Shown here piece by piece: positions 3,828 to 61,300 of a stretch of 64,000 bases of DNA (its first letter is position 1; each line of letters opens with the position of its first letter). The notes below the pieces were generated by a model. The model had not been told where the DNA came from. It searched no databases and worked only from the letters and a program-made list of their open reading frames with translations. A program made the translations under genes and the position numbers. The DNA lies in assembly GCF_964355755.1 (NCBI RefSeq), contig NC_092678.1, forward strand, positions 17,625,365 through 17,689,364, in the 5' to 3' direction. This DNA is from Antedon mediterranea (Eukaryota > Animalia > Echinodermata).

Positions 3828-4620
3828 GAAAGGTTGTAGTCAAGAGGCAGGAAACTGCAGGTGTTGTTTATTGCCTTTAGACATAAACAGGTACCACCGT
3901 ACGAGAATCGGGTGTCCAACGGACGAGTACCATGTGTGTATATCGGGAACAAAGCTATTATAAAGTGTACAGATTTTACAGACTATGTCTACGACACATA
4001 ATCTGTTGTATGACAAGAATTAATGAATGAGTCCGATAATTGTACAGAGCATCAAACAACTACATGCAGATTATTAAACATTTTGACAAACATAGCGTTT
4101 CATACGTATGGTAAGTGTACACACTGCATAGAAAACATCGAAACGCGACAACAGAAAAAAGACAATAACAGAGACTTGGGACAAGTCTACACAGTATTAA
4201 CTTACAGTATTGAAAGTGATGAAGCAAAAGCAGAAAATGCACCTTGATCTATGGTAGTTATAGCGTTATCGTTTAAATACCTACAGATATTGAAAAAAAA
4301 AGACACACATTTCAAACGGATTGATTTAAAACAATATTAATAATAATACTGTACAACAATACAATAAATAGATAACCACTACATTTGTCTGCTATATTTC
4401 ACAGTACAGTTATTTGTATTCAGCATTTCAGTGGGCGATTTAGACTTCGTTTGACACTCGAAACAATGTCAAATGAAAGGCAAGCTAATATTGCCATGAG
4501 GAGGTGCAAATCTGAGGTAGAGGGGAAAATGTAATGTGTACAAACAGATATCACCTCACCTTTATTTATAAAAGTTGAAAATCAGAAAAAAGGGGAGAAT
4601 GTAGTGTATTATTTTTTGTT
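3828..4620 (+). repeat. Partial dispersed copy of the duplicated LRR-locus unit
   Basis: Near-identical to ~34908-35700 and ~49524-50590 (e.g. ggtaccaccgtacgagaatcgggtgtccaacggacgagtac); it ends where the LINE poly(A) tail begins. Confidence 0.85.
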
Positions 4621-8690: not shown

Positions 8691-8698
8691 ATTCAACG

Positions 8699-38410: not shown

Positions 38411-38419
38411 TATCCTTAT

Positions 38420-39330
38420 ATTCACACAACGGTAGAGCAGTTAGCACTTCAGTTTCAACTGATGAAAGAATCTGGGTAATCAAACTGTTCGTGCTTTGAA
38501 TAATCGATTGCACTGCAACCACCTAAAGAAAATAATATTGATTTAATATTTTTTATATTCAAGTTTTAATATGTTTAAAAACTAAGTTGTGCTTTAGTTG
38601 GGGAGCTATGCAGCCTAACAAAAAAAATGTTATTTGTAACAATGAAATTGGTCACAAAAAAATGCAACATAAACTTAGAGTGTATAATGCCTAGGCCTAG
38701 GCCTAGTACCCAAGTCCTATAGTTACTATAGCTAATAGTCCTGTATATAACAGTACCAGCAAGGCCTAGGAAATAGACGTATTTCTCTAATAAAAAATAG
38801 TTTAAAATGCATAATTGTTGTAATTTTAAAGCAAAATGGCTTACCTGTGGAATCTTGTTTCTCTCCTTTAATTTTAGTAGAAAGAAATCAGCATTTTTTA
38901 TACTATTATCTGCTTGTTCATCCTCTAGTTAGTAGGCCTTCTTGCTGAGCATCAACAAGATAATTAATATTAAACAATCATTAACAGTATAACAATACTA
39001 GAATTATCACTACTACTATCGTCAGTTGATAAATCATCCCCGTTATAATAGTTTTTTTCTTCATTAACTTCGTCAGTCTCCTAGTCTAGGCCTAGTTCTA
39101 CTTCATCCTCAATTGGCATCCTCGTTTTCTCCAGGCATACTTATTACTGATGTTTCCATCGTCAACTGCAGGAGGTTGCCGATTGTTATACTCGTCCTTA
39201 AAATGGCGTCTTATGACATGCTTGTAAAACGAATTGTAAATTTCAAAGCTTGCCGGGCAGACAGCGAACCACCAATTCCACATGTTACTCGAAAATTCGG
39301 AGTATTTCCATGAATTGAATTATAATGCCT
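38420..39330 (-). pseudogene. N-terminal remnant of an EnSpm-type transposase (C2H2 zinc finger)
   Basis: HGNTPNFRVTCGIGG/CPASFEIYNSFYKHVIRRH, then ADFFLLKLKERNKIPQ|gt..ag|VAVQSIIQSTNSLI; the catalytic core is deleted. Confidence 0.7.
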
Positions 39331-39738
39331 TAGCAAATAGGGTAGCAAATACTGTACCTACTTCAGTTTACTGGCACCAACTTATCGCTTTTTTTCGGAC
39401 TGCAACAAACATGTGTCATTATTATTGTCTGTCGTATTACTGTTAGTCCAGACGTTTTACAGATTTGCTTTAACCACCATGGAGGTTTATACCTCCATGC
39501 TTTAACGTTGAGCAGTATAATGACCTTATACATTCTGGGTAAAAGGCCAGCGATAAATTTTTGGTTATAGTTGAAAAACAACACTGTGTGTGGTCGATGA
39601 CCTAGCTCCCGGCGGGATCATGGCCAACGGTTTTTTAAAGTAATCATTCAAAATCTAGAGTTTGTAAGTAAAAGACACCTTTCATCGCAATTTATATATT
39701 AAATGCTTCAATAGGCCTAGTAAGATTAGTCTAATATA

Positions 39739-41844
39739 ATGTCGAAGGAAGACGCTTTGTTGAAGATCCGAGAAATAGATGAAGAAGTGGCCAACATTTT
39801 AACAGGTTCGTAGGCCTAATAATTATATTTTAATCTGCCAGCAGTCTAGGCCTAGCCTAGGCTCCTTCCTAGCTAGTAATACTGTAGGCCTGGAACTAGT
39901 AAGTCTAGGCTAGCCTACTATGCCTGTACTGACGGACAGGTGTATAGGTTTAGCTTAGCATTTTAGTTCAGACATTGACAGAGGGGACAAATATTGTCGG
40001 ACCTATTTCAGCTAGGTATAAGGAAGGCCTAATAATAGATAATACAATTATAATGTAACAGTTATTTTGTAATGTAGCCATGAAATATCTACGAAGGATT
40101 ATACTGTATTATATACACATATTCCAATGAGAAATATAATGACATTTAAAAACACTTCTTTATATTTAATTAATTGTACACACTAAGTAATCCCCGAAGT
40201 GATCACATCGATATTGAAACTTTATGTTTTTAACTCTAAATTTAAAAAAAAACATACTAAAAAAACAAACAAAAAACATACGTACTGCATAACTAAAATT
40301 GTTATATTAAATTTCTTTTTAAAAAACTGTGTTATTTACAATATCTTAAATTATTTGTTAGGTAATTGAAGAAGTTCGAAGGATACTAATTATTACTAGG
40401 CAAAGAGGAATGAAATACAAAAGAAAGCTTTTTAAAAAAGTGCTTAGCAAATTTTTCCAAAGAAGAGAATAATATAGTTTATTTTGGTATTTTAAAGAGA
40501 AACACCAGTCCTCCATCTGGTAAGTACAGTGTATGTTTTTGTACTTTTATCTATTCATAAATAGTTTTATAATGGACCAATGGTAGTGAGGAAAATACGT
40601 GTACATATTGTGTACGTATTTTTAACAGCTTGGTTCGACGCAAGCTAGTGTCATGCACTCCTCCCTTTGACAACTAAAATTAAATAAATGACTTATGAAT
40701 ATTAATTTTTGACATATTAATGCTCTCCTGGCCAGCCCACCCTTTCCCCTTCCTTTTACATTGACCACCTACAAAACTGTAGGCTACATTATTAAAAATT
40801 TGAGCTACAGTATATCAAGTTTATGTCCATACATTATTCCACTCATTTAAATAAATTTATATAATATAATGTTTTCAATTTGTTATTTTTGGTTAGGTTC
40901 AACCCATATGTTGTCAAATCTGTCAAACATATTTGTTGGGAAAAACTCATCAAAAAAAGTCTGCCGACCTTGAAGGTATTTAGTGTTTTTTAAAATTTAA
41001 AATACAAGTAACATTATGTACATTAAAAAAAAGTATTTTTTTAAAATCAAATTTATCTTAGCTTAAAATTCGAGGTATATACTATGTTTACAATAATTTA
41101 TTAAAATCAAACAATTAAACAAAATTTACATTTAATTGTATGATTGTTATTATAAACATTGATACGGAATAAAAACATCAATCAGGATTGAGCACCGTTT
41201 TGCGTATTGTCTTCTTAAATAGTAATATTAAAAATAAATTTAGACCCTAATAATTTAACTAAAAATAATAGATACAGCCAGGCCTGTCTTTGGGATCGGT
41301 ATAAACAGGGCAAAGTTTGTGATTAAAAAGTTCAAATGCATATTCCACCCACCCTTATGTCTTATAATGTAAAATTATTCTTACCACCGTTCTAATATTG
41401 CGTCATGTTTTTGTGTTTACCGCCCCAGATATAGGACTCTAAAACCACACCGTACCCAATTAGTTGATGATGTTACACATATTTTAAATACAGTAATAAC
41501 TAAAACTATATTAATCTCTTTTCATTTTTAGGAACATGAATAAAGATCCAGAATCCTGGTCTTCACGCCGATCAGGTAATATGCCGGTATTGCTTTTTGA
41601 CACAGAAATGGCCTACATTAAAGTTTAGCAAACAATTCTAACTACAAAGAAAGCAAAATTAGATGAGGCTCTAGTTACTCTCCTCTCCACTTTTTACCTT
41701 CTGGATTTCGATTATCCAAAATGAAAAGAAGTAGGCCTCACTATCCATTAACAGTTAGTGATTTGTGATGAAAACACACCTGTACACTTGACAAAGGCTG
41801 TTGAATCATCATTAGTATACATTAATAAATTTAAAGACACCTAA
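39739..41844 (+). pseudogene. Spliced accessory (second) gene remnant of the EnSpm-type element
   Basis: Candidate exons ~39739-39805, 40361-40519, 40897-40975 and 41532-41844; the last encodes EALVTLLSTFYLLDFDYPK*KEVGLTI. Contains stops. Confidence 0.55.
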
Positions 41845-42129
41845 TAGTTTAAAGCCCAGGTGCGGGAGAAGAATTTTACGAAATTTGTATTTTACCATTT
41901 TAATGTTTTTAAGTTTTCTTTTGATGGCATTTTATTATTAATAAAAACAAGTTTGTTTTAAAGAAGTTGTATATATTATTGTACCTAATGTCATGTAAAT
42001 TGTAGTTCTTAATGAAAATAACAGTATTGTTAATATTATGTTTAATAACATTCTTGAATTTATTTGTTTAAGTAAAATATTACTTAAAATGAGTATTCAT
42101 TTATCGTTCTTAAAATAAATTTTTAATGA

Positions 42130-43760
42130 TTTATATTTTATAGAATTCTTGTTTCAAGCAATTTTTTTCCCAATATAAGTAAGAATTTACGAATTTTAAT
42201 TTGATAGAATTCTTGTTTCAAGCAATACTTTTCTTAAAATAAGTAAACATTTACTGGTTTTTATTTGATAGACTTCTTGTTTACTTATTTTAAAAAAAGT
42301 TTTGCTTGAAACAAGAATTCTACAAATAAAAATCGGATCTTACTTATTTTAAGAAATATATTGCTTGAAACAAGAAAACTAAAAATATAAATCGGAATAT
42401 TCTTACTTATTTTAAGAAAAATATTGCTTAAAACAAGAATTCTAAAAAATACAAACCGGAATATTCTTACTTATTTTAAGAAAAATATTGCTTGAAACAA
42501 GAATTCTACAAATAAAAATCGGAATATTCTTACTTATTTTAAGAAATATATTGCTTGAAACAAGAATTCAAAAAATACAAATCGGAATATTCTTACTTAT
42601 TTTAAGAAAAATATTGCTTGAAACAAGAATTCAAACAAATACAAATCGGAATATTCTTACTTATTTTAAGAAAAATATTGCTTGAAACAAGAATTCAAAA
42701 AATACAAATCGGATATTCTTACTTATTTTAAGAAATATATTGCTTGAAACAAGAATATTAAAATTAAAAATCGGAATATTCTTACTTATTTTAAGAAAAA
42801 TATTGCTTAAAACAAGAATTCTAAAAAATACAAATCGGAATATTCTTACTTATTTTAAGAAAAATATTGCTTGAAACAAGAATTCTACAAATAAAAATCG
42901 GAATATTCTTACTTATTTTAAGAAATATTTTGCTTGAAACAAGAATTCAAAAAATACAAATCGGAATATTCTTACTTATTTTAAGAAAAATATTGCTTGA
43001 AACAAGAATTCAAAAAATACAAATCGGAATATTCTTACTTATTTTAAGAAAAATATTGCTTGAAACAAGAATTCAAAAAATAAAAATCGGAATATTCTTA
43101 CTTATTTTAAGAAATATCTTGCTTGAAACAAGAATTCAAAAAAATACAAATCGGAATATTCTTACTTATTTTAAGAAATATATTGCTTGAAACAAGAATT
43201 CTATAAAATACAAATCGGAATATTCTTACTTATTTTAAGAAAAATATTGCTTGAAACAAGAATTCAAAAAATACAAATCGGAATATTCTTACTTATTTTA
43301 AGAAATATATTGCTTGAAACAAGAATATTAAAATTAAAAATCGGAATATTCTTACTTATTTTAAGAAAAATATTGCTTAAAACAAGAATTCTAAAAAATA
43401 CAAATCGGAATATTCTTACTTATTTTAAGAAAAATATTGCTTGAAACAAGAATTCTACAAATAAAAATCGGAATATTCTTACTTATTTTAAGAAATATTT
43501 TGCTTGAAACAAGAATTCAAAAAATACAAATCGGAATATTCTTACTTATTTTAAGAAATATATTGCTTGAAACAAGAATTCTATAAAATACAAATCGGAA
43601 TATTCTTACTTATTTTAAGAAAAATATTGCTTGAAACAAGAATTCAAAAAATACAAATCGGATATTCTTACTTATTTTAAGAAAAATATTGCTTGAAACA
43701 AGAATTCTATTTTAAAAAATCGATAAATTGTTACTTATTTTAAGGCAGATACTGCTTAAA
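42130..43760 (+). repeat. Subterminal array of 63-bp units
   Basis: Unit ttgcttgaaacaagaattcaaaaaatacaaatcggaatattcttacttattttaagaaaaata, more than 20 copies. Confidence 0.92.
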
Positions 43761-45030
43761 ACAAGAATGAAAAAAGCAATTAAATTCTTGGTAAGAATAT
43801 TGTTCTTAAAGTATTATTTCTTGGTAAGAATAATTTTCTTGATAAGAATTTGTGTGATTCTTGTTAAGAATTTTACGATTCTTGGTAAGCCAAAAAGTAT
43901 TGAAATACGGACAAGTCAAAATTTACTTGTTTCAAGAAATATTTTGCTTGAAACAAGTTTTTTTTTTCTTAAAACAAGAATCAGAATTTTGCTGTGTAGA
44001 GTATACTTTATATATCTGTATACGTACTACATACAGTGCAGAATAGTTGAAAATACCTGGACCCGTTTTTTCATCCAATTTTTACCATGATGATGTCATC
44101 AAAATGAAACACATAGATAGCAATCTTGGAAGGAAATTATCTGAGCAACAACATATCGTGTTGAATAAATTTGGATACGTAGAATACGGAAGCGCGCCCT
44201 TTTAAATGTCATGAACTATGACGCAAAATATGAAATTACGACTTTTATAATTGAACTGGCCATATGATGACGTCACAACATCCGATTCGCATAATTTGTA
44301 CATGATTTCCAGCTTCCAGAAAACGTTTTAATCATGTGTATCACTTTTTATTCTGAGGAGCTATAATACATTTAAATTTATTGGAATGATGAAAAAAAGT
44401 GATCAAAGTTATTCACGCTTTTGTACATGATGAAGTCATCACAATTTTAAAAATTGTAAATCATGCGAAAGATAATTGATTGACCTAGACAATATAAAAA
44501 AAATGGTGGGAAATGGAATATGGATAAGTGGAGATGCGTTCTATTAAATGTGAGGAGCTATGACAAAAGAGACAAAAATCCTATATTTTATATTCGAGTG
44601 GCCATACGATGATGTCACAATGTCTAGTTAGCCATATTGATACATGATCCGATATCAACAACTCATCTACTTCCAGAATATGTTAAAAAATAAACTTCAC
44701 CATGTAGTTTAGAAACTATGACTGTTTAAAAAAGGCATAAATATGACGATTTATTATACTTTTTCAGCAAAAACGAGCGCAAATTGTCCAATTCGACGTG
44801 CTCGTATGACGTGATTTTAAGTCGAAATTGTTTGAAAGCTGGTAAAATTACTAGAAAATGCTGGAAAAACATAAATCACGCTAAAAAAATAACATTTACT
44901 AATAATGATAATAATAATTATACGAATAGGGCAAAGGGTAAAAAATAAAATAATATGACAATAAGTGTGGTTATATTACAACGAAAATATACTATTTTCA
45001 AAAGTATGATAAACAAGAGAAAGCACTCAC

Positions 45031-45102
45031 AGTATTGTCAATGATTTCAAACCATCAAAAACGTTTTCTGGTAATGTAGTTATTTGGTTACTGGACAACG
45101 AT
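45031..45102 (-). CDS. 72-nt phase-2 LRR exon A of a host LRR gene (intact)
   Basis: ttttcag|a-SLSSNQITTLPENVFDGLKSLTI-ct|gtgagt; typical 24-aa LRR. Confidence 0.85.
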
Positions 45103-45254
45103 CTGAAAACCGTGAAAATGCAATACATAAGTTTAGTTTTGGATGAATATTCTGTCTTTGCAAAGGATAAAAAATGAAATGATGTGACAATAAGTGTGGT
45201 TTTATAACAACAAAAATATACTATTTTCAAAAGTATTATAAACAAGTGAAACAT

Positions 45255-45302
45255 TCGAACACATTTGCTGGTAATGTTGTTATTTGGTTATTGGCCAACC
45301 AC
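45255..45302 (-). pseudogene. LRR exon B, 3' part and donor deleted
   Basis: ttttcag|g-WLANNQITTLPANVF then runs directly into intron-homologous sequence. Confidence 0.75.
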
Positions 45303-46523
45303 CTGAAAATTGTGAAAAATGTAATAAATACTATATACAGTACCAAGGGATAGGATGATAAAACATTATATATTTTATATATAATTTAGAAAAACAAACA
45401 AAACATAACAATACATATCTTATTGTGCCAGCAGAGGTCAAGTCCAATTAGGCGTGTCACTCCAGAAATGAAACCATTACAAGGTATATACAAGGACATA
45501 CTAATACTTGTTTAATGTTACTTTAGCTCGTATTATCATTATTTGCATGTTTTAACTGTTTTTCATTAACTTCTTCTACAGGATATATAATTATGTTTTA
45601 TCTGTATTTTACTGTAATCATGTTGTACTTTGCATATCATATGATGACATAGATCAATATCTACGATACAATACAACCGTTAAATGACGATGATCCATGT
45701 GTTCTGCTATATTTTTACGTTTTGTTATGGCCGCCGATGGTGCTACAGTAAACAATAAACAATGCCAAATAGAAAAACTCAAAAAGAGCAAAAAGAAAGA
45801 TATTACATTTGAACGTATTACGCATGAAACAGACATATTTCATTGAAGTATTAATTCCTAAAATAAAATAATTGTTTTTATGAGGAAAAGAGTTAAACTG
45901 ACGTTTTCATGAGAGGAAGATATATAATATTTGTTCCTCATGCAAAATAAGCTTATTACAACACTATTACACTAAAGCATAAAGTTACACTTAACTGTGC
46001 TTTAAAATAAACATAATTTAAAGCATTACACAGTATAGGCCAATAGTTCACCCGATAACAATTTCTGATTTGTCCAAATTTTTTTTTTTAAATCTGACAA
46101 ATATAAACATGAAGAAATAAAAAAACATGTCGTTAATATACATCAGACTTAAGAATAATGACATCAATTTTCGATAATCATAAGGACGAGTTCTCTCATT
46201 TGTGCCCATGGAATTGATATTTCCTAAGTTCACCTAACTACGGAGGAATAACGCATTTATATTTATATAATGACTACATTAATCATAATATTTAATGATG
46301 CTGTGTTATCGAATTTTCTATGTTACTGGAGAAATCGGGATACAGTACCGATAATCAGGTGTGTTAGACCAGAATACGTTACTCCGGCTTAAAATGGAGG
46401 TATTTGCTTTAACCACGTTCTGAAATGTGTCTGTAAGATTATGTTAGGCAAAAACAACACCTTGTATGCCTTAGCAGCCTGGTCTAGAGACCTATGTATT
46501 GCCTTCGCTAAATCCTTTCTTAA

Positions 46524-47594
46524 CACTTTGACTGCCAGAGGTTTTTCCAGTTAGAAACTGCCACCGCCAGCGTTTTTAGCCCAATTCGATGTTTTTATTA
46601 AAGCTGATTGAAACCATGTATGTGATCTGATTTGTATGTAATTTAGACTAAAATAATCATAAAGATTTTAACTTTACAATGGTACCAAGAACGATTTTTA
46701 AATCGCAATATGTAAATCGTAATAGTAAAATGAAAGTAACCCACTTTTTGAATTTTTCGTAGTTTCGCGCAAGAAAGTCGAGATATTCGCGATTTTGTGC
46801 AAGACATCACAATATGAAAATATCGCCCGGTGAGATCAACAAACAACGAAAAAGTTACTTACACGGCACCGATAGGCCTATACTATAAAAACAAGTTATC
46901 ACTATCGAAAAATGTATTACATTTTATAAATCATAAATCTTACATCAATGTTTCGCCAAAATCCACATAGTAAAGACACCAGGCCTAATTAACCAGGTCT
47001 AAAGTTGGTCCGAAACCGTTTTACGACTAGGGCTAGGCTAGCCTAGTACTAACTAGCCTAGGCCTAGGCCTAGCTAGGAGATAGTAAACTGATGATAATA
47101 ACCATACCATTTCAAAACAAGTTTGTTGCGTGAAACTCGGTCACTTTCAGTAAAACACTAAAACAATTAGGGTATACATACAATAATAAAATTAAAGACT
47201 TCATATTGAAAATGACTCCATTATTTTTTATTCATATTTATAACAAACAAACATGTCAATCCACAAAAACCTTTGTAATGCTTCAGCGGCATAGCTAGCG
47301 CGCGACCGATACACAATGCGCCAAGCCATCGCTCTACGCGCTAACTGTGATGCGCGGTGTTTGTTATTTCGACAGGTACCATTTTGACAGTCGTTCGTAA
47401 CCAGATTAGTTACTTTCAAATTGTAAAATATTCACGGTCCAGACCGAATATAGTGTTCATATTTATAGTATATACCAATAATTAACCTATCTACCGGATT
47501 TCGTAAAAAAACGCGTAAAACGAAGATCTTCGTTTTTGGCAGTCAAGCGTTGTGTTTCCAAAAACGAAGATCTTCGTGTTTGGCAGTCAAAGTG
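46524..47594. mobile_element. piggyBac-type non-autonomous element, 1071 bp
   Basis: TTAA TSD on both sides; 14-bp TIR CACTTTGACTGCCA; empty single-TTAA site in the paralog at ~62523. Confidence 0.92.
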
Positions 47595-49885
47595 TTAAAC
47601 TTGTTCCCACTTATACCTTCTGGAGGAATGTTATCCATCGATATAACCCTAATATACTGCTGATTGGATTCGTCATTTTATAATTGTAACACAATGTGTC
47701 ATAAGAACTGTTCGTTATACCATGGTAGTATGTGGTACAATTAATTAAAGAATTATATGATTTGTAAATAGTTTACACAAAGTGCAACACAGTGTGACGT
47801 ATTATCTGCTACAATATCTAATGATTAGGCCTACACATTTTTAATAATTATTTAAATTCTCATTTAATAAACCACTTATAATAACAAATTACCGTATTAA
47901 ACGTACAAATCAAAGTATACAAACAATAAGTATATACAGTACCAACGGAAATTACGATACAAAAGTATCTATTTATTAATTTCGAAAAAAAAAAATAATA
48001 ACAACAAATTATCTATATTGTGCCAACAGAGGCCAAAAAGACTTATGTCCAATTAGGCGTGTCACTCTGACAGTGAAACAATTACAAGGTATAATTGATA
48101 TAATACTAATTTAATGTTACTTTATCTCGTATTATCATTTCATGTTTTAGCTGTTTTTCATTAACTGTCTTTGCATGATTATAACAATGTTTTATCTAGA
48201 TTGACTGTAATCATGTTGTACTTTCCATATCATATGATTTCTCGTATTATCATTATTTGCATGTTTTAGCTGTTTTTCATATGATTTCTAGATGTATTTC
48301 AATATCTACGATACAATACAACCGTTAAATGACGATGATCCATGTATTCTGCTATATTTTTATTTGTCATTATGGCCGCCGATGGTGCTACAGTAACTGA
48401 ATTAAAGAGACAAAACAATGGCAAAATAGAAAAACTCAAAAAGAGCAAAAAGAAAGATATTATATTTGAACGTATTACACATGAAACAGACATATTTCAT
48501 AGAAGTATTAATTCCTAAAACAAAATAATTGTTTTTATGTTTAACTCTATGCCTCATAGAGTTAAACTGACGTTTTCATGAGAGGAAGATATATACTATT
48601 TGTTCCACGTGCACAATAAGCTTATAAAACTATTGCAGATTATACGTGAATCGGTAACGAGTCGGTGACAAACCGAACGGATCATCCAGGAGTTCTGAAA
48701 CGTCTGGCCAAGTGCGCTCTCTTTGCGCAGTATTATACGGAGGCGTGTCTATTTTTATTTTCGTATCTAATTTTGGCTTTAAAAACATGTCAGCCCAAAA
48801 CAATCGCTACCACTGGATCCGCCCCGTCGGAATATTGTCGATATAAAATGATGGAGGTTCAGACGTTCTGTAGTACATTTAAATTGTATTATTTGTATTC
48901 CCTCTTTAAACTTCATCTTAATTTCAATATAATAATATCAATTAAGTAATATTGTTTACTTAGAAGTATGCCAGTTATTCAGCACTTAAGAAAACAAAAT
49001 CAGAAAAATGTAAACACATGTTACCAGGTTTTTTTAAAACATTAATACAGCTAAGTGTGTTAATTAATTAGATGTAAAGCACATTTTAGCATGAAGAAGT
49101 GAAAATATGGAGGGAAAGAAAACATAAAGTGTAGACACAGATATCACCTCACAAGCAATCTATTGCTGACCCAGTGTGAAGCCAGTAGTCAAGAGTTGTT
49201 CCTGCTCCCCAATTATTGTGGTCCCTTTATTTATAAAACTTGAAAAGCAGAAAAAAGAGGAGGAGGTGTATGTTTGTTTGTTGGCAGACTATAACGCTGG
49301 TTCAGATTTTAAGTTAAGTTTATCTTACGGACGGATAACGCTAATAATGTACGTACCACAACATTAGGTAATCGATGCGCCCCCATTATGACACGTGTGA
49401 ATAAAGAACAAGTGCTATTCCACTGTACGGAAGGATAGCTACCCGATGCCTCTCATAATAATATTATTTTTCATTCAATAACATATATTAATAACGATAA
49501 TAATAATTTACTTTAAAACAAACGAAAGGTTGTAGTCAAGAGGCAGGAAACTGCAGGTGTTGTTTATTGCCTTTAGACATGAACAGGTACCACCGTACGA
49601 GAATCGGGTGTCCAACGGACGAGTACCATGTGTGTATATCGGGAACAAAGCTATTATAAAGTGTACAGATTTTACAGACTATGTCTACGACACATAATCT
49701 GTTGTATGACAAGAATTAATGAATTATGAGTCTGATAACTGTACAGAGCATCAAACAACTACATGTGGATTATTAAACATTTTGACAAACATGGCGTTTC
49801 ATACGTATGGTACGTGTACACACTGTATATAAAACATCGAAACGCGACAACAGAAAAAAGACAATAACAGAGACTTGGGACAAGT

Positions 49886-50197
49886 GAGGGCGTGTGGCGC
49901 AGTGTGTTGGACGTTGGACTACCGATCGTCAGACCTAGGTTCGAATCCAACTCTCGCCGCATTGCTTGTATCCGTAGGCAAGATACTTTACTTACGTTGC
50001 CTCTCTCCACCCAGGTGTATAAATGGGTACCCAGTTAGATCTAGACACAACTGCGCTGGTTACCGGCTGCATTATGGGAGGATGTTTCCATACGTGTTCG
50101 ATCCCAAAAAACACTGGGGTAATAATGCTTGTAAAGCGCCTTTGAGCATGATTACTCATGAAAAGGGCGCTATATAAATCTGGTATTATTATTATTA
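49886..50197 (+). mobile_element. tRNA-derived SINE with conserved central domain and L2-type tail
   Basis: A box TGGCGCAGTGTG, B box GGTTCGAATCC, ccacccaggtgtataaatgggtacc core, gtaaagcgcc...ggcgctatataaat tail, (ATT)n end, short AAGT TSD; absent from paralogs at ~4183 and ~35257. Confidence 0.9.
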
Positions 50198-51070
50198 TAA
50201 GTCTATAAAGTATTAACTTACAGTATTGAAAGTGATGAAGCAAAAGCAGAAAATGCACCTTGATCTATGGTAGTTATAGCGTTACCATATAAGTACCTGC
50301 AAATATTGAAAAAAAAGACACACATTTCAAATTATTAATAATAATACTGTACAACAATACAATAAATAGATAACCACTACATTTGTCTGCTATATTTCAC
50401 AGTACAGTTATTTGTATTCAGCATTTCAGTGGGCGATTTAGACTTCGTTTGGCACTCGAAACAATGTCAAATGAAAGGCAGGCTAATTTTTGCCATTGTG
50501 TACAATTCCAAACAGATATCACCTCAACTTTATTTATAAAACTTGAAAATCAGAAAAAAAGGGGAGAAGGTAGTGTATTATTTGTGGTTGTTGCCAGATG
50601 CCTAAACTCTAGAAAATGATAAATTAAGTTTATCTTACGGACGGATAACGCTAATAATAACAATTATTAATTCATAGTTATGCTTTATAGCTTTTTGAGG
50701 TTTTTTTTTGTGCACTTAGAAGAACTTATTTAAAGTGCATTTTAAGTATTGTTTTTCTTCTAGATTATTTCAGTCATCACAATAGTTAATATTTGTTTTA
50801 TTTGGAGGTTCAGACTTAAACACAAAGTACAAATGTATATAGTGCACTATGCTGTGTGAATTAAAACTGAAACACAAAACCACCACATTAGGTAACCGAT
50901 GCGCCCTCATTATGACGTTTTTTTATAAGAGAAAGATACAAACCATGTGTTGCGCGTGCGAATAAAGAACAAGTGCAGCTATTCCAATGTACGGAGGGAA
51001 AGATAACCAATGCCTCTCATAAAAACATTATTTTTCACTTAATAATATTTACTAATAATGATAATAACAA

Positions 51071-52110
51071 GACGAGTTAGGTTATCCGCAGCGCAAATGC
51101 CACGTGCACGTCATACTTTAGAATATTGAGCACAGAAAAACGATTATGCCATTGAAAAAATGTTAGTGTGGTCTCTATTTTGTGTCACGTCTAAGTATAT
51201 AGAGTATACACTATATATCTGTATACGTACTACTTACAGTGCAGAATAGGTGAAAATACCGGGACCCGCTTTTTCATCCAATGTTTACCATGATGATGTC
51301 ATCAAAACGAAACACGTAGATAGCAATTTTGGAAGGAAATTATCCGAGCAACAACATATCAACGTGTTGAATAAATTTGGATACGTATAATACGGAAGTG
51401 CGCTCTTTTAAATGTCATGAACTATGACGCAAAATATGAAATTACGACTGTTATAATTGAACTGGCCATATGATGACGTCACAACATTCGATTTGCATAA
51501 TTTGTACATGAATTCCTATTGTACAATTCAACAGTTTCCAGAAAACGTTTTAATCATGAGTATCACTTTTTATTCTGAGGAGCTATAATACATTTAAATT
51601 TATTGGAATGATGAAAAAAAGTGACCAAAGTCATTCACGCGTTTGAACATGATGAAGTCATCACAATTTTAAAAATGGTAAATCATGCGAAAGATAATTG
51701 ATTGACCTAGACAATATAAACATATGGGGGAAAATGGAATATGGATAAGTGGAGATGCGCTCTATTAAATGTGATGAGCTATACAAAAGAGACACAAATC
51801 CTATATTTTATATTCGAGTGGCCATACGATGACGTCACAATGTCTAGTTAGCCATATTGATACATGATCCGATATCAACAACTCATCTACTTCCAGAATA
51901 TGTAAAAAAAAACTTCACCATGTAGTTTAGAAACTATGACTTTTGAAAAAAAGTCATAATTTTGACGATTTTTTTACTTTTTCATAAAAAACGGGCGCAA
52001 ATTGTCCAATTCGACGTGCTCGTATGACGTGATTTTAAGTCGAAATTATTTGAAAGCTTGGAAAATTACTAGAAAAGGCTGAAAAAACATAAATCACGCA
52101 AAAAAAATAA
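51071..52110 (-). mobile_element. 5'-truncated Helentron-type element (paralog of 36184-44890, uninterrupted, 3' tip lost)
   Basis: gacgagttaggttatccgc start; colinear with 36206-36335 plus 43997-44890. Confidence 0.75.
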
Positions 52111-52247
52111 CATTTACTAATAATGATAATAATAATTATACGAATAGGGCAAAGGTAAAAAATAAAATGATGTGACAATAAGTGTGGTTATCTTACAACG
52201 AAAATATACTATTTTCAAAAGTATGATAAACAAGAGCAAACACTCTC

Positions 52248-52319
52248 AGTTCTGTCAATGATGTCAAAACATCAAACACATTTGCTGTTAATGTAGTTAT
52301 TTGGTTATTGTACAAGTAC
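52248..52319 (-). pseudogene. 72-nt LRR exon C with mutated donor (GT>GA)
   Basis: ttttcag|g-YLYNNQITTLTANVFDVLTSLTE-ct|gagagt. Confidence 0.8.
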
Positions 52320-52595
52320 CTGAAAACCGTGAAAAAATTCAATAAATAAGTATAGTATATATACAGTACCAAAGAATAGTACGATAAAAATGATCTATTT
52401 TATTAATTTAGAAATACTTTCCATATCATGATTTCTGGATGTAGATGTGTTCTGCTATATTTTTACGTTTGATATAATATGATAGAGGTTCCGACGTTCT
52501 GTGGTATATTTATTATTGTTTTATTTGTATGATCCCTGTAAACTTCATCTTAATTTCAAATATAATAATATCAATAAAGTAATATTGTTTACTTA

Positions 52596-52795
52596 AGCGT
52601 GATTCCCACTAGAACGCAACGCAACATAGCGACGTGTCGACGCAAACTGCTGTATTGCGTAATCACAAATGGGAACCGACGACGCTACAATGCTGCAAAG
52701 CCGCAGGTTTGATTTCACGCAGGCGAGGGAAAACACAATTATCGGAAGGGCATTTTCTTACGCTGCGTAGGTTGCGTTACGTTGCGTCGCTAGAA
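52596..52795. mobile_element. PIF/Harbinger-like MITE, right end damaged
   Basis: agcgtgattcccactagaacgcaacgcaac...gttgcgttacgttgcgtcgctag; absent from paralogs (gtttacttagaag at ~34340, ~48957 and ~63765). Confidence 0.6.
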
Positions 52796-53604
52796 GTTAG
52801 AAGAGTGCCAGTTATTCAGCACTGAAGAAAACAAAATAAGAAAAAATGTAAACACATGTTACCAGGTTTTTTTAAAACAATTATAAAGCTAAGTGTGTTA
52901 ATTAATGAGATGTAAGCACATTTTAGCATGAGGAAGTGAAAATATGGAGGGAGAGAAAACATAAAGTGTAGACACAGATATCACCTCACAAGCAATCTAT
53001 TGCTGACCCAGTGTGAAGGCCGAAATCAAGAGTTGTTCCTGCTCCCCAATTATTGTGGTCCCTTTATTTATAAAACTTGAAAAGCAGAAAAAAGAGGAGG
53101 AGGAGGTGTATGTTTGTTTGTTGCCAGATGCCTATAAAGCTGGTTCAGAGTTTAAGTTATGTTTATCTTACGGACGGATAACGCTAATAATGTACGTACC
53201 ACAACATTAGGTAACCGATACGCCCCCATTATGATACGTGCGAATAAAGAAAAAGTGCTATTCCACTGTACGTAGGGATAGCTACCCGATGCCTCTCATA
53301 ATAATATTATTTTTTATTCAATAACATTTAATAATAATGATAATAATAATTTACTTTAAAACAAACGAATACAAGTAGGCCTCATTACACACAATACAAC
53401 TACAAACATGAGCTTGTGTTAAAAGAAAGGTTTAGGGATCAATCATAATCAAACAAAAACGGGCATATTATATTATTTTAGTTTTGGATGAATATTCTGT
53501 CTTTGCAAAGAGTAAAAAATGAAATGATGTGACAATAAGTGTGGTTATCTTACAACGAAAATATATTATTTTCAAAAGTATGATAAACAATAGAAAGCAC
53601 TCAC

Positions 53605-53676
53605 AGCCCTGTCAATGATGTCAAACCATCAAACACGTTTTCTGATATTGTAGTTATTTTGTTACTTTCCAACCAT
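53605..53676 (-). CDS. 72-nt phase-2 LRR exon D (intact)
   Basis: ttttcag|a-WLESNKITTISENVFDGLTSLTG-ct|gtgagt. Confidence 0.85.
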
Positions 53677-55358
53677 CTGAAAATTGTGAAAAAATGCATT
53701 AAATAAGTAGCCTATATAAATACAGTACCAAATGATAATACGAAAAAAAAAAATTATTTTTTAAATTTGTATATACAAAAAAATATAACAACAAATATCT
53801 TATTGTGCAAACAGAGGCCAAAAAAAGCTTATGTCTATTAGGCGTGTCACTCCAGCAGTGAAAACATTACAGGGTAGGCCTATATACAAGGACATAAAAA
53901 TGTTTGTTTAATGTTACTTTAGCTCGTATTATCATTAGTTGCATGTTTTAGCTGTTTTTCTTTAACTGCTTTTACATGATATAACTATGTTTTATCTAGA
54001 TTTACTGTAAATATGTTGTAATTTCTTTAATATCTACGATACAATACAACCGTTAAATGACGATGATCCATGTATTCTGCTATATTTTCATTTTTCATTA
54101 TGGCCGCCGATATTGCTACAGTAACTGAATTAAATAGTCTTGAGTTCGCATAAACAATGTCAAAATAGAAAAAATCAAAAAGAGCAAAACGAAAGATATT
54201 ACATTTGATCGTATTACACATGAAACAGACATATTCCGTAGAAGTATTAATTCCTACAATAAAATAATTGTTTTTATGAGGCATAGCGTTAAACTGACGT
54301 TTTCATGAGAGGAAGATATAAAATATTTGTTCCTCGTGCACAATAAGCTTATTACAACACTATTACACTAAAGCATAAAGTTACACTTAACTGTGCCTTA
54401 ACACCGTTTAATAGTTCAACCGATACAACATTCTGATTTGTCCAAATTTCTTTTTAAAAAAATCTGACAAATATAAACATGAAGAAATAAAAAGCAATGT
54501 CATTAATATACATCAGGCTTAAGAATAATGACATCAATTTTCGATAATCATAAGGACGAGTTCTCGAATGATTCTCTCATTTGTGCCGATGGAATTGATA
54601 TTTCCTAAGTTTACCTAACTACGGAGGAATAGATGCCTCAAATAATAACGTTTTCATGAGAGGAAGATATATAGCATTTGTTCCCCGTCAACACTATTTC
54701 AAATCCCATGAATCGAAACAATATGTCGAGTGTGCCTATTCCTTCTTGTTCTTATTCCTCTTGAGAGGAATATATATAACATTTGTTCCGCGTGCAAAAT
54801 AAGCTTATAACACTATTGTAGATTATACGTGAATCGAAACAATTATGTCGAGTGTGCCGATTCCTTCTTGTTTTACTGTGGACAACCGCATAGAGAAACT
54901 TTAACATTAACGCCATGCGTCTGGATTGTCTGTGATTTTAAACGATTGTCAATGCTATCTCGACATATGACAATTATTTCTATTTGGTAATACAGAATCT
55001 CAAATGTATCACATGTGGTTCTTGTATCATTAGGTTAAGAATAAACATTTAAAATAATTATATAATTTCTCATTTAATAAAACATACCAGTTATACAACA
55101 AACTACGTACAGGAGCTCGAGCTTGTGTTAAATTAGTACATATTTTTTATCATTTATATTAAGAATACATTAATCATAATGTTTAATGATGCTGTATTAT
55201 CGAATTTTAATGTTACTGGAGAAATCGAGATAGAATACCGATAATCAGGTGTGTTAGACCAGAATACGTTACTCCTGCTTAAAATGGAGGTCTTTGCTTT
55301 CACCACGTTCTGAAATGTGCCTGTAAGATTATGTTAGGCAAAAACAATACCGTGTATA

Positions 55359-58300
55359 CACAGCAAAATTCTGATTCTTGTTTTAAGAAAAAAAAAACTT
55401 GTTTCAAGCAAAATATTTCTTGAAACAAGTAAATTTTGACTTGTCCGTATTTCAATACTTTTTGGCTTACCAAGAATCGTAAAATTCTTAACAAGAATCA
55501 CACAAATTCTTATCAAGAAAATTATTCTTACCAAGAAATAATACTTTAAGAACAATATTCTTACCAAGAATTTAATTGCTTTTTTCATTCTTGTTTTAAG
55601 CAGTATCTGCCTTAAAATAAGTAACAATTTATCGATTTTTTAAAATAGAATTCTTGTTTCAAGCAATATTTTTCTTAAAATAAGTAAGAATATTCCGATT
55701 TGTATTTTTTTGAATTCTTGTTTCAAGCAATATATTTCTTAAAATAAGTAAGAATATTCCGATTTGTATTTTATAGAATTCTTGTTTCAAGCAAGATATT
55801 TCTTAAAATAAGTAAGAATATTCCGATTTGTATTTTATAGAATTCTTGTTTCAAGCAATATATTTCTTAAAATAAGTAAGAATATTCCGATTTGTATTTT
55901 TTTGAATTCTTGTTTCAAGCAAGATATTTCTTAAAATAAGTAAGAATATTCCGATTTTTATTTTTTGAATTCTTGTTTCAAGCAATATTTTTCTTAAAAT
56001 AAGTAAGAATATTCCGATTTGTATTTTTTGAATTCTTGTTTCAAGCAATATTTTTCTTAAAATAAGTAAGAATACTCCGATTTGTATTTTTTGAATTCTT
56101 GTTTCAAGCAATTTTTTTCTTAAAATAAGTAAGAATATTCCAATTTGTATTTTTTGAATTCTTGTTTCAAGCAAAATATTTCTTAAAATAAGTAAGAATA
56201 TTCCGATTTTTATTTGTAGAATTCTTGTTTCAAGCAATATTTTTCTTAAAATAAGTAAGAATATTCCGATTTGTATTTTTTAGAATTCTTGTTTTAAGCA
56301 ATATTTTTCTTAAAATAAGTAAGAATATTCCGATTTTTAATTTTAATATTCTTGTTTCAAGCAATATATTTCTTAAAATAAGTAAGAATATTCCGATTTG
56401 TATTTTTTGAATTCTTGTTTCAAGCAATATTTTTCTTAAAATAAGTAAGAATATTCCGATTTGTATTTTTTGAATTCTTGTTTCAAGCAATATTTTTCTT
56501 AAAATAAGTAAGAATATTCCGATTTGTATTTTTTGAATTCTTGTTTCAAGCAATATATTTCTTAAAATAAGTAAGAATATTCCGATTTATATTTTTAGTT
56601 TTCTTGTTTCAAGCAATATATTTCTTAAAATAAGTAAGAATATTCCGATTTTTATTTGTAGAATTCTTGTTTCAAGCAAAACTTTTCTTAAAATAAGTAA
56701 GAATATTCCGATTTGTATTTTTTGAATTCTTGTTTCAAGCAATATTTTTCTTAAAATAAGTAAGAATATTCCGATTTGTATTTTTTGAATTCTTGTTTCA
56801 AGCAATATATTTCTTTAAATAAGTAAGAATATTCCGATTTTTATTTGTAGAATTCTTGTTTCAAGCAATATTTTTCTTAAAATAAGTAAGAATATTCCGG
56901 TTTGTATTTTTTAGAATTCTTGTTTTAAGCAATATTTTTCTTAAAATAAGTAAGAATATTCCGATTTATATTTTTAGTTTTCTTGTTTCAAGCAATATAT
57001 TTCTTAAAATAAGTAAGAATATTCCGATTTTTATTTGTAGAATTCTTGTTTCAAGCAAAACTTTTTTTAAAATAAGTAAACAAGAAGTCTATCAAATAAA
57101 AACCAGTAAATGTTTACTTATTTTAAGAAAAGTATTGCTTGAAACAAGAATTCTATCAAATTAAAATTCGTAAATTCTTACTTATATTGGGAAAAAAATT
57201 GCTTGAAACAAGAATTCTATAAAATATAAATCATTAAAAATTTATTTTAAGAACGATAAATGAATACTCATTTTAAGTAATATTTTACTTAAACAAATAA
57301 ATTCAAGAATGTTATAAAACATAATATTAACAATACTGTTATTTTCATTAAGAACTACAATTTACATGACATTAGGTACAATAATATATACAACTTCTTT
57401 AAAACAAACTTGTTTTTATTAATAATAAAATGCCATCAAAAGAAAACTTAAAAACATTAAAATGGTAAAATACAAATTTCGTAAAATTCTTCTCCCGCAC
57501 CTGGGCTTTAAACTATTAGGTGTCTTTAAATTTATTAATGTATACTAATGATGATTCAACAGCCTTTGTCAAGTGTACAGGTGTGTTTTCATCACAAATC
57601 ACTAACTGTTAAAGGATAGTGAGGCCTTTTTCTTTTCATTTTGGATAATCGAAATCCAGAAGGTAAAAAGTGGAGAGGAGAGTAACTAGAGCCTCATCTA
57701 ATTTTGCTTTCTTTGTAGTTAGAATTGTTTGCTAAACTTTAATGTAGGCCATTTCTGTGTCCAAAAGCAATACCGGCATATTACCTGATCGGCGTGAAGA
57801 CCAGGATTCTGGATCTTTATTCATGTTCCTAAAAATGAAAAGAGATTAATATAGTTTTAGTTATTACTGTATTTAAAATATGTGTAACATCATCAACTAA
57901 TTGGGTACGGTGTGGTTTTAGAGTCCTATATCTGGGGCGGTAAACACAAAAACATGACGCAATATTAGAACGGTGGTAAGAATAATTTTACATTATAAGA
58001 CATAAGGGTGGGTGGAATATGCATTTGAACTTTTTAATCACAAACTTTGCCCTGTTTATACCGATCCCAAAGACAGGCCTGGCTGTATCTATTATTTTTA
58101 GTTAAATTATTAGGGTCTAAATTTATTTTTAATATTACTATTTAGGAAGACAATACGCAAAACGGTGCTCAATCCTGATTGATGTTTTTATTCCGTATCA
58201 ATGTTTATAATAACAATCATACAATTAAATGTAAATTTTGTTTAATTGTTTGATTTTAATAAATTATTGTAAACATAGTATATACCTCGAATTTTAAGCT

Positions 58301-61300
58301 AAGATAAATTTGATTTTAAAAAAACACTTTAAGATATTTTTTTTTAATGTACATAATGTTACTTGTATTTTAAATTTTTAAAAACACTAAATACCTTCAA
58401 GGTCGGCAGACTTTTTTTGATGAGTTTTTCCCAACAAATATGTTTGACAGATTTGACAACATATGGGTTATCTTTGAACCTAACCAAAAATAACAAATTG
58501 AAAACATTATATTATATAAATTTATTTAAATGAGTGGAATAATGTATGGACATAAACTTGATATACTGTAGCTCAAATTTTTAATAATGTAGCCTACAGT
58601 TTTGTAGGTGGTCAATGTAAAAGGAAGGGGAAAGGGTGGGCTGGCCAGGAGAGCATTAATATGTCAAAAATTAATATTCATAAGTCATTTATTTAATTTT
58701 AGTTGTCAAAGGGAGGAGTGCATGACACTAGCTTGAGTCGAACCAAGCTGTTAAAAATACGTACAAAATATGTACACGTATTTTCCTCACTACCATTGGT
58801 CCATTATAAAACTATTTATGAATAGATAAAATTACAAAAACATACACTGTACTTACCAGATGGAGGACTGGTGTTTCTCTTTAAAATACCAAAATAAACT
58901 ATATTATTCTCTTCTTTGGAAAAATTTGCTAAGCACTTTTTTAAAAAGCTTTCTTTTGTATTTCATTCCTCTTTGCCTAGTAATAATTAGTATCCTTCGA
59001 ACTTCTTCAATTACCTAACAAATAATTTAAGATATTGTAAATAACACAGTTTTTTAAAAAGAAATTTAATATAACAATTTTAGTTATGCAGTACGTATGT
59101 TTTTTGTTTGTTTTTGTAGTATGTTTTTTTTTAAATTTAGAGTTAAAAACATAAAGTTTCAATATCGATGTGATCACTTTGGGGATTACTTAGTGTGTAC
59201 AATTAATTAAATATAAAGAAGTGTTTTTAAATGTCATTATATTTCTCATTGGAATATGTGTATATAATACAGTACAGTATAATCCTTCGTAGATATTTCA
59301 TGGCTACATTACAAAATAACTGTTACATTATAATTGTATTATCTATTATTAGGCCTTCCTTATACCTAGCTGAAATAGGTCCGACAATATTTGTCCCCTC
59401 TGTCAATGTCTGAACTAAAATGCTAAGCTAAACCTATACACCTGTCCGTCAGTACAGGCATAGTAGGCTAGCCTAGACCTACTAGTTCCAGGCCTACAGT
59501 ATTACTAACTAGGAAGGAGCCTAGGCTAGGCCTAGACTGCTGGCAGATTAAAATTTAATTATTAGGCCTACGAACCTGTTAAAATGTTGGCCACTTCTTC
59601 ATCTATTTCTCGGATCTTCAACAAAGCGTCTTCCTTCGACATTATATTAGACTAATCTTACTAGGCCTATTGAAGCATTTAATATATAAATTGCGATGAA
59701 AGGTGTCTTTTACTTACAAACTCTAGATTTTGAATGATTACTTTAAAAAACCGTTGGCCATGATCCCGCCGGGAGCTAGGTCATCGACCACACACAGTGT
59801 TGTTTTTCAACTATTTTCAAAAATTTATCGCTGGCCTTTTACCCAGAATGTATAAGGTCATTATACTGCTCAACGTTAAAGCATGGAGGTATAAACCTCC
59901 ATGGTGGTTAAAGCAAATCTATAAAACGTCTGGACCAACAGTAATACGACAGACAATAATAATGACACATGTTTGTTGCAGTCCGAAAAAAAGCGATAAG
60001 TTGGTGCCAGTAAACTGAAGTAGGTACAGTATTTGCTACCCTATTTGCTAAGGCATTATAATTCAATTCATGGAAATACTCCAAATTTTCGAGTAACATG
60101 TGGAATTGGTGGTTCGCTGCCCGGCAAGCTTTGGAATTTACAATCATAAGACGCCATTTTAAAGACGAGTATAACAATCGGCAACCTCCTGCAGTTGACG
60201 ATGGAAACATCAGTATATAAGTATGCCTGGAGAAAACGAGGATGCCAATTGAGGATGAAGTAGAACTAGGCCTAGACTAGGAGACTGACGAAGTTAATGA
60301 AGAAAAAAACTATTATAACAGGGATGATTTATCAACTGACGATAGTAGTAGTGATAATTCTAGTATTGTTATACTGTTAATGATTGTTTAATATTAATTA
60401 TCTTGTTGATGCTCAGCAAGAAGGCCTACTAACTAGAGGATGAACAAGCAGATAATAGTATAAAAAATGCTGATTTCTTTCTACTAAAATTAAAGGAGAG
60501 AAACAAGATTCCACAGGTAAGCCATTTTGCTTTAAAATTACAACAATTATGCATTTTAAACTATTTTTTATTAGAGAAATACGTCTATTTTCTAGGCCTT
60601 GCTGGTACTGTTATTATACAGGACTATTAGCTATAGTAACTATAGGACTTGGGTACTAGGCCATTTTTTTGTGACCAATTTCATTGTTACAAATAACATT
60701 TTTTTTGTTAGGCTGCATAGCTCCCCAACTAAAGCACAACTTAGTTTTTAAACATATTAAAACTTGAATATAAAAAATATTAAATCAATATTATTTTCTT
60801 TAGGTTGCAGTGCAATCGATTATTCAAAGCACAAACAGTTTGATTACCCAGATTTTTTCATCAGTTGAAACTGAAGTGCTAACTGCTCTACCGTTGTGTG
60901 AATATAGGATATTGACAATCTATTTTAAGTAAAACATTTCTCAAAATAAGTATTTTTAAGAATATTAAAATAGAATTGACTTCAATTCAAGCAAAAATAG
61001 TCTTGATAGGATATAGTATGATATTGACTTCTTATCTTAAGTAAACCATTTCTCAAAATAAGTATTTTTTAAAATATTGCGAATCTCAATTTAAGCAAAA
61101 ATAGTCTTGATAAGATAGTATGATATTGACTTCTTATTTTAAGTAAAACATTTCTCAAAATAAGTATTTTAAAGAATATTGCGAATCTTGATTCAAGTAA
61201 AAATAGTCTTGATAAGATAGTATGATATTGACTTCTTATTTTAAGTAAAACATTTCTCAAAATCAGAATATTGCGAATCTGAATTCAAGCAAAAATAGTC

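What the first reader, a model, noticed from the sequence alone, without database searches (positions are those of the whole stretch)
45031..53676. Mosaic array of single-LRR exon cassettes with variable binding-face residues
Seen: four 72-nt phase-2/2 LRR exons (A-D) in duplicated intron context. By flanking intron, A pairs with C (aaaaccgtg; tacgaatagggcaaagg) and B pairs with D (aaaattgtg; gttttggatgaatattctg). By exon core, A pairs with D (starts 'a', SN, ENVFDG, donor gtgagtgctttct) and B pairs with C (starts 'g', NN, ANVF). The xLxxN positions differ in every copy (S-SS, W-AN, Y-YN, W-ES) while the framework and adjacent introns are conserved. Known: these positions form the ligand-binding concave face of LRR solenoids and are the diversified sites in lamprey VLRs and in exon-shuffled Ectocarpus LRR genes. 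Inference: exon-limited gene conversion or shuffling is diversifying an invertebrate LRR receptor, with splice-dead exons possibly acting as donors.
Basis: partly seen in the sequence, partly recalled or inferred. Interest (0 to 1): 0.8.

Follow-up and report, generated by a model that had tools for sequence, protein, structure and literature searches.

The report
Half-decayed array of variable LRR exons
Eight tiny exons that each encode one leucine-rich repeat lie in tandemly duplicated, transposon-riddled DNA and differ mostly at the predicted binding surface, so they are likely a partly broken copy of a fast-changing receptor family, likely echinoderm G-protein-coupled receptors, that likely swaps exon sequence between copies in the germline.

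Summary
Partly confirmed. The four minus-strand LRR exons and the crossed exon/flank pairing are real. But only A and D are intact: C has a GT>GA donor and B lost its last 24 nt and donor. The window holds four more LRR exons: three 75-nt copies and one 72-nt exon. All lie in about 2.5 tandem units of about 5.9 kb, split by transposons. Differences pile up at predicted concave-face codons in both exon classes (9/12 vs 8/57 and 6/12 vs 4/60 variable columns). Three non-face exon sites contradict the flank tree, which homoplasy rarely gives in simulation, so germline gene conversion is likely. Public runs show many paralogs and one contig that joins two such exons without an intron. The 75-nt exon carries a motif found in 14 of 121 LRR-GPCRs (named ones are brittle-star) and 0 of 258 other hits, but the window has no cap and no 7TM exon. 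A donor role for dead exons, somatic assembly and expression of this locus are not shown. The scan noted this family before, at other loci of this genome (unreviewed AI notes).

The parts
53605..53676 (-). LRR exon D, 72 nt, phase 2/2, intact AG/GT; carries minority framework residues K6, I10, S11
52248..52319 (-). LRR exon C, 72 nt, acceptor intact, donor GT>GA; an in-frame cryptic donor (GTAAGA) lies 51 nt downstream and would give a 123-nt exon without a stop
50222..50296 (-). 75-nt LRR exon E1 (25-residue repeat, first-LRR-like motif), intact
45255..45302 (-). Truncated LRR exon B: first 48 nt only; last 24 nt and donor deleted; reads into a stop. The same junction appears as a loose end in run X6 (another species label)
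45031..45102 (-). LRR exon A, 72 nt, intact; only about 130 nt separate it from the remnant of B
35280..35354 (-). 75-nt LRR exon E2, open frame, donor GTATGT; ladder Asn changed to Lys within a cluster of changes in codons 3-6
4206..4280 (-). 75-nt LRR exon E3, intact
3059..3130 (-). Divergent 72-nt LRR-like exon X, intact AG/GT, single copy in the window; no Pfam hit on its own
50297..64000 (-). Upstream tandem unit (holds D and C; interrupted by the second large transposon; runs off the window end)
35355..50296 (-). Second tandem unit (E1, B, A): 14,942 nt, about 5,885 nt after removing three insertions
36336..43996 (.). 7.7-kb non-coding transposon with terminal inverted repeats (CACAGCAAAATT), TA target duplication and internal 102- and 63-nt tandem arrays, inserted between A and E2
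55359..62470 (.). Second, inverted 7.1-kb copy of the same transposon, upstream of D; core differs from the first by 26 of 3410 positions
46524..47594 (.). 1.07-kb element with TTAA target duplication and 14-nt inverted ends; empty site seen in runs X1, X5, X6
49882..50198 (+). 317-nt SINE-like insertion downstream of E1 (tRNA-like box recalled from knowledge, TAT tail); empty site seen in X1, X5, X6

Best explanation
These exons are one-repeat-per-exon modules of a leucine-rich-repeat protein gene, likely an echinoderm LRR-GPCR of a large paralog family, that was multiplied here by tandem duplication and is now partly broken, with copies likely exchanging exon sequence by germline gene conversion and the predicted ligand-contact codons likely driven apart by selection. 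Shown: eight phase-2/2 exons on one strand; tandem units whose flanks differ by 3-11%; B and C have lost their normal donors; change is concentrated at face codons; exon and flank trees disagree. Inferred: because every exon is symmetrical and a multiple of three, skipping B and C would leave an open six-repeat frame (D-E1-A-E2-E3-X), so the locus could still contribute to a protein. Inferred: conversion tracts cover the exon plus about 100 nt of downstream intron and draw on the many paralogs in the genome. Inferred: the changing face alters what the ectodomain binds, most likely foreign or environmental molecules. B and C are most simply casualties of turnover, not dedicated donors.
For: Exon anatomy. 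Tandem units and junctions. Face vs other variable columns: 9/12 vs 8/57 for A, C, D (p=6e-5) and 6/12 vs 4/60 for the 75-nt copies (p=9e-4). E1 vs E3 differ at 4 of 12 nt in codons 1, 3, 4, 6 and at 0 of 60 elsewhere, while their flanks differ by 3-4%. Three non-face AD|BC sites arise by homoplasy on the flank tree in at most 0.004% of simulations at flank rates and at most 0.8% at threefold rates. Proximal intron of C vs D: 2/85 differences against 31/240 distally (p=0.002). In runs X1 and X6, 43 and 72 contigs lie on the 161 nt around D. All four bases occur at the middle of codon 23, and the variants at positions 36 and 40 are common in both. Reading rows of equal depth together, an A-like copy in X5 and a D-like copy in X1 differ from the window at face codons (my reconstruction). 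One X5 contig joins two family exons head to tail at exactly 72-nt spacing with no intron. The 75-nt motif occurs in 14 of 121 LRR-GPCRs, always as the first repeat, and in 0 of 258 other hits. The six exons with GT donors join without a stop.
Against: No cap, hinge or 7TM exon was found in the window, so GPCR membership rests on one post hoc motif, weak HMM scores (E 0.013-0.22) and unreviewed AI notes. The 72-nt exons score better against unrelated LRR proteins than against the GPCR set. A first-LRR-like exon repeated three times inside the array is not a normal receptor layout. Framework changes among A, C and D are mostly non-synonymous (6 of 8), as in neutral decay. E2's cluster removes the ladder Asn, which looks like a mutational event and not selection. 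In the 75-nt class only codons 3 and 4 of the four face codons change residue. The joined X5 contig is single, of depth 2.3, matches no exon pair of this window, and X5 is only guessed to be RNA. Only 3-4 copies per class were compared; no dN/dS model was fitted. A possible start exon of another gene lies at 1271-1414, which would leave this array without a 7TM.
Confidence: 0.6

Rival explanations
1. The locus is a dead duplicate. Its differences come from neutral decay plus a local mutation or repair hot spot at the exon 5' end, and any selected diversity was inherited from live paralogs by passive conversion.
For: B deleted, C donor lost, E2 ladder Asn lost. About 30 kb between E2 and E3 that includes LINE and other transposon-like sequence. 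Framework changes 6 non-synonymous to 2 synonymous. No cap or 7TM exon.
Against: Five exons keep splice sites and ladder residues, and no exon with a donor has a stop or frameshift. E1 and E3 have 0 of 60 non-face differences but 4 face differences since a duplication of 3-4% age; the lack of framework change alone is not significant (p=0.11).
Confidence: 0.22
2. Same germline diversification, but the exons belong to a non-GPCR LRR protein (secreted LRR-only, TLR-like or LRR-Ig).
For: No 7TM in the window. The 72-nt repeats are generic and best match VLRs, designed LRRs and unnamed LRR proteins. A possible start exon follows the array.
Against: The 75-nt motif was found only in the LRR-GPCR set (14/121 vs 0/258). 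Unreviewed notes describe 72-nt LRR exon arrays with a 7TM elsewhere in this genome (a lead, not support).
Confidence: 0.12
3. VLR-like system: splice-dead exons are kept as a donor library and are copied into an expressed gene in body cells.
For: Dead copies persist: a C-like face and the B deletion junction also occur in run X6 of another species label. One intronless join exists in X5, which may be DNA.
Against: The exons have ordinary splice signals and all lie on one strand within duplicated introns. VLR cassettes flank an incomplete germline gene whose only intron is in the 5' UTR (PMC3308329, passages). The join was not listed for the far deeper runs X1 and X6. No exact donor tract for the first 22 nt of any exon was found elsewhere in the window beyond 10-13 nt.
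Confidence: 0.05

Closest known systems
Brown-algal ROCO genes with shuffled LRR exons (PMC3341825 and PMC11378527; passages read)
   Same: One LRR per 72-nt phase-2 exon. Inactivated LRR exons among live ones. Positive selection at four concave-face sites (14, 16, 18, 19) whose spacing matches codons 23, 1, 3, 4 here (my mapping). High pseudogene rate.
   Different: Intracellular GTPase in algae with a GxxP-type repeat; here a typical extracellular-type repeat in an animal. No reverse-strand exons here. The two main texts contain 'gene conversion' 0 times.
Expanded LRR-GPCRs without a listed LDLa domain (P0254, P0259, P0261-P0379; named members are Amphiura filiformis)
   Same: A 25-residue first repeat ending in an AFxxFASSLxxL-like motif (P0273, P0277, P0378), followed by 24-residue repeats.
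   Different: Cap, hinge and 7TM are absent from the window. The first-repeat-like exon is internal and triplicated. Many of those proteins were called as single ORFs on short contigs, so they may lack introns (inferred).
GRL101 / type C LGRs (PMC8286064, PMC6267866; passages read)
   Same: LRR ectodomain on a rhodopsin-type receptor. Phase-2 LRR introns are stated for gonadotrophin receptors in PMC11378527 (passage).
   Different: GRL101 has LDLa repeats and is reported as a single gene in crinoids. Here there are many variable paralogous exons, and no LDLa exon was recognised.
Lamprey and hagfish variable lymphocyte receptors (PMC3308329; passages read)
   Same: Very similar 24-residue repeat; antigen binding on the concave face; copying between cassettes.
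   Different: VLR cassettes are templates for somatic assembly into an incomplete gene. These are spliceable germline exons, and no somatic step is shown.

Membership tests
Typical-class LRR repeat | LxxLxLxxNxL consensus, 24-residue period | tested here: met
   Pfam LRR_8 matches for A, C, D, E1, E3; PDB matches to VLR, LGR4/5, LRRTM-type repeats
One-LRR-per-exon shuffled arrays (ROCO-like mode) | 72-nt symmetrical phase-2 exons | tested here: met
   A, C, D, X are 72 nt and E1-E3 are 75 nt, all phase 2/2; B is truncated
One-LRR-per-exon shuffled arrays (ROCO-like mode) | Excess change at concave-face codons | tested here: met
   9/12 vs 8/57 and 6/12 vs 4/60 variable columns; counts only, no codon model; face position inferred from the consensus, not from a fold
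One-LRR-per-exon shuffled arrays (ROCO-like mode) | Sequence exchange between copies | tested here: met
   Three non-face sites against the flank tree and homogenised proximal intron; four copies only
ROCO proteins | Roc-COR GTPase domain | tested here: not met
   No such Pfam hit among the 18 sequences scanned (6 exons and 12 of the 61 long ORFs); short split exons could be missed
Echinoderm LRR-GPCR | First repeat of 25 residues with AFxxFASSLxxL-like end | tested here: met
   14 of 121 GPCRs, 0 of 258 others; the three 75-nt exons are the top three window hits of a cap+LRR1 profile, E 0.013-0.22; motif chosen post hoc
Echinoderm LRR-GPCR | Hinge and 7TM domain in the same gene | tested here: inconclusive
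   No hit in the window; DNA beyond the window could not be read
Echinoderm LRR-GPCR | Cys-rich cap before the first repeat | tested here: not met
   Cap-only profile from 13 proteins found nothing (best E 5.8); a diverged crinoid cap could be missed
GRL101 / type C LGR | LDLa repeats | not tested
   No LDLa profile was run; none was recognised among the candidate exons
VLR | Incomplete germline gene flanked by non-spliced cassettes | tested here: not met
   Exons carry acceptor and donor signals within introns
VLR | Somatic assembly in immune cells | not testable with these tools
   Only unlabelled contig sets were available

The most novel reading that the evidence does not exclude
An invertebrate deuterostome keeps splice-dead LRR exons as a donor library and copies their face codons into live receptor genes, possibly in body cells, giving intronless assembled forms such as the head-to-tail join seen in run X5. 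This would be a VLR-like diversification system outside vertebrates, built on a GPCR.
Probability: 0.06. Interest if true: 0.92.

Novelty: new variant of a known kind. Interest (0 to 1): 0.5.

Why it matters
Diversified germline receptor families are known in echinoderms, and shuffled one-repeat exons with a variable face are known in brown algae. An animal GPCR whose LRR arm is rebuilt from interchangeable, converting exons with a hypervariable face did not turn up in my seven answered paper searches on this point (listings and abstract starts only; open-licence library; no supplements seen). If real and expressed, it offers a testable candidate for non-self or chemical recognition through G proteins, and a model for how VLR-like cassettes could arise from ordinary exons. 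This locus adds a view of turnover: duplication, conversion, exon death and transposon invasion in one array. It is a weaker witness of function than an intact gene would be.

Tried and rejected
No whole genome is held, so flanking DNA and other copies could not be read. Run search: no RNA holder listed; this is no evidence on expression. Laying X5, X10, X1, X6 on 44000-55350 showed no exon-exon joint among the 15 rows shown; 204 more rows were hidden, so absence is not shown. X5 also covers introns and holds unspliced exon flanks, so whether it is RNA stays open. Summed contig depth is no copy number and is not used as one. Protein search with exon A plus upstream frame: 3 candidates, none significant. 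Profile searches returned mostly unnamed long LRR proteins with no exon-specific match. Look-ups of earlier findings near this place and by sequence gave nothing. The 7-kb inverted repeat is not one foldback element carrying the exons: each arm has its own inverted ends and TA duplication, and the left arm interrupts sequence that is continuous at 51,197-51,200. The repeated R/T intron segment has no LRR frame when its insertions are removed. No local donor tract for face codons was found. In one search the face set was codons 1, 3, 4, 6, and only 2 of 6 pairs of the 72-nt class reached p<0.05; one search used 1, 3, 4, 23, chosen after seeing the data and the algal spacing. No fold or complex job was run, because single exons are below the length limit. 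Rfam found one tRNA-like match only.
Full report
Observation. The window is AT-rich animal-like DNA (GC 0.21-0.39); no whole genome is held. On the minus strand a short motif finds four LRR elements: D 53605-53676, C 52248-52319, B from 45302, A 45031-45102. A, C and D are 1 nt + 23 codons + 2 nt, and match Pfam LRR_8 and solved VLR, LGR and designed LRR repeats. A and D have GT donors. C has GA, with an in-frame cryptic GTAAGA 51 nt further on. B keeps 48 nt, is 29 nt shorter than A across the exon end and reads into a stop. So two of four are normal exons.

More exons. A scan for acceptor-donor pairs with an open frame adds three 75-nt exons (E1 50222-50296, E2 35280-35354, E3 4206-4280) and one divergent 72-nt exon (X 3059-3130). 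The order along the strand is D, C, E1, B, A, E2, E3, X. The six with GT donors join to 441 nt without a stop. E2 has Lys at the ladder Asn.

Context. Self-comparison shows tandem units. E1 to E2 spans 14,942 nt, or 5,885 nt without three insertions. A is the positional copy of C (5.4% of 1025 nt differ downstream) and B of D (10.9% of 640 nt upstream); flanks of the 75-nt exons differ by 3-6%. The large inverted repeat is two separate insertions of one 7.1-7.7-kb non-coding transposon, each with its own inverted ends and TA duplication, 0.8% apart in the core. A TTAA element and a SINE-like element have empty sites in runs X1, X5 and X6. LINE and DUF7869 frames lie between E2 and E3.

Mosaicism. 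In the 48 exon positions shared by all four copies, four sites group A with D (1, 12, 36, 40), one groups A with C and one A with B. In the flanks compared (16 nt upstream, 70 nt downstream) none groups A with D. By position alone p=0.071. Simulated on the flank tree, three or more non-face AD|BC sites occurred in at most 0.004% of 50,000 runs at flank rates, 0.1% at twofold and 0.8% at threefold rates (branch lengths set by me). A and C differ at 13 of 72 exon positions against 5.4% in flanks (p=1e-4). The intron just after C and D differs at 2 of 85 positions (6 of 99 with the donor region) against 31 of 240 in homologous distal pieces (p=0.002 and 0.045); selection on splice elements could also explain this. 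At least two exchange events are needed (inference). The variants at positions 36 and 40 are common across paralogs in X1 and X6, which fits repeated conversion from a family pool.

Variable face. With codons 1, 3, 4 and 23, 9 of 12 columns vary among A, C and D against 8 of 57 elsewhere (p=6e-5); this set was fixed after seeing the data. These positions are the exposed residues of the LxxLxLxxN strand (established knowledge). Their spacing matches the four selected sites of brown-algal exons (PMC11378527, passages; my mapping). Against purifying selection here: 6 of the 8 variable non-face columns are non-synonymous.

Other DNA. Eleven runs hold part of the stretch; none is on record as RNA. 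On the 161 nt around D, 43 contigs of X1, 4 of X5, 72 of X6 and 2 of X9 were laid. All four bases occur at the middle of codon 23 in X1 and X6. Reading rows of equal depth together (my reconstruction), a D-like copy in X1 has Gly at codons 1 and 3, an A-like copy in X5 has Trp, Tyr and Thr at codons 1, 3 and 23, and a C-like copy has the same face as C in X1 and X6. A loose end in X6 matches B's deletion junction. The only joint listed is an X5 contig (depth 2.3) that goes back 57 with 15 letters between: a 72-nt period. Those letters read as the last 5 nt of one exon and the first 10 nt of the next. It matches no pair in this window. It is either a spliced transcript of a paralog or an intronless DNA copy; X5's nature is unknown.

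Which gene. Profile searches gave mostly generic LRR proteins, among them two with a 7TM (P0254, Amphiura; P0259, unnamed). A search with the 7TM region of P0259 gave 373 relatives, 120 listed. The 72-nt exons do not single this set out. The 75-nt exon does: its end motif is in 14 of 121 GPCRs, each time as the first repeat, and in 0 of 258 other hits, and a cap+first-repeat profile ranks E3, E1 and E2 first in the window. The motif was chosen post hoc and the scores are weak. No cap, hinge or 7TM was found in the window. Earlier unreviewed notes describe 72-nt LRR exon arrays on GPCR genes elsewhere in this genome and call it a feather star. I took these as the lead for the GPCR test; the organism label is untested here.

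Mechanism. Shown: exon anatomy, tandem duplication, exon loss, face-biased change, tree discordance, many paralogs. Inferred: germline conversion over exon plus proximal intron, diversifying selection on binding specificity, GPCR identity, skipping of dead exons. Not shown: transcription of this locus, ligand, donor role, somatic change. I put 0.60 on this reading, 0.22 on a dead duplicate, 0.12 on a non-GPCR protein and 0.05 on VLR-like assembly.

Known systems. It works like the shuffled LRR exons of brown-algal ROCO genes, which also include inactivated exons (PMC3341825, passages), but no Roc-COR domain was found. It is not a VLR (PMC3308329, passages) and not the single-copy, LDLa-bearing GRL101 (PMC8286064, PMC6267866, passages). 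Seven paper searches (listings only) showed no report of such arrays in an echinoderm GPCR; subscription papers and supplements were not seen.

Verdict. A real feature and a new variant of a known kind. The family-level pattern would interest a specialist, but this copy is half decayed and its most exciting reading is unsupported. Interest 0.5.

Noticed in passing
window 36336-43996 and 55359-62470: Two recent, inverted copies of a 7.1-7.7-kb non-coding transposon with TA duplication, CACAG ends and long internal 102- and 63-nt tandem arrays, 11.4 kb apart and enclosing D, C, E1, B and A. They could promote inversion or deletion of the array.
   Followed up: partly
window 1271-1414 (minus): 144-nt stretch between a good acceptor and a GTAAGT donor, with stops in all three frames before an ATG that opens 25 codons with a hydrophobic core, ending in phase 1. 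Possibly the start exon (signal peptide) of a neighbouring gene.
   Followed up: partly
window 22770-25894: Head-to-tail 1,564-nt duplication at 99.87% identity: a very recent duplication or an assembly artefact.
   Followed up: no
window 10151-14324 (minus): Split frames, two matching DUF7869 above the Pfam cut-off; likely an intron-containing DNA transposon.
   Followed up: partly
window 4993-8964 (minus) and 31395-32375 (plus): Fragmented LINE-type reverse transcriptase frames.
   Followed up: partly
window 47931 and 62858: In both tandem units the pre-exon intron segment breaks off about 25 nt before where an acceptor would be, suggesting one more 72-nt exon was deleted before the duplication.
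   Followed up: partly
window 43999-44889, 51071-52107 and 18165-22630: High-copy repeat inserted downstream of both A and C, with older inverted copies at 18-22 kb.
   Followed up: no
window 25934-25990 (minus): Single tRNA-like Rfam match at the end of the 1.56-kb duplication; probably a SINE head.
   Followed up: no
P0259, P0261-P0379: 373 LRR-plus-7TM proteins related to P0259, with named members from Amphiura and no LDLa domain listed in the 120 rows shown; several per contig. Suggests a large brittle-star expansion of the same receptor class.
   Followed up: partly
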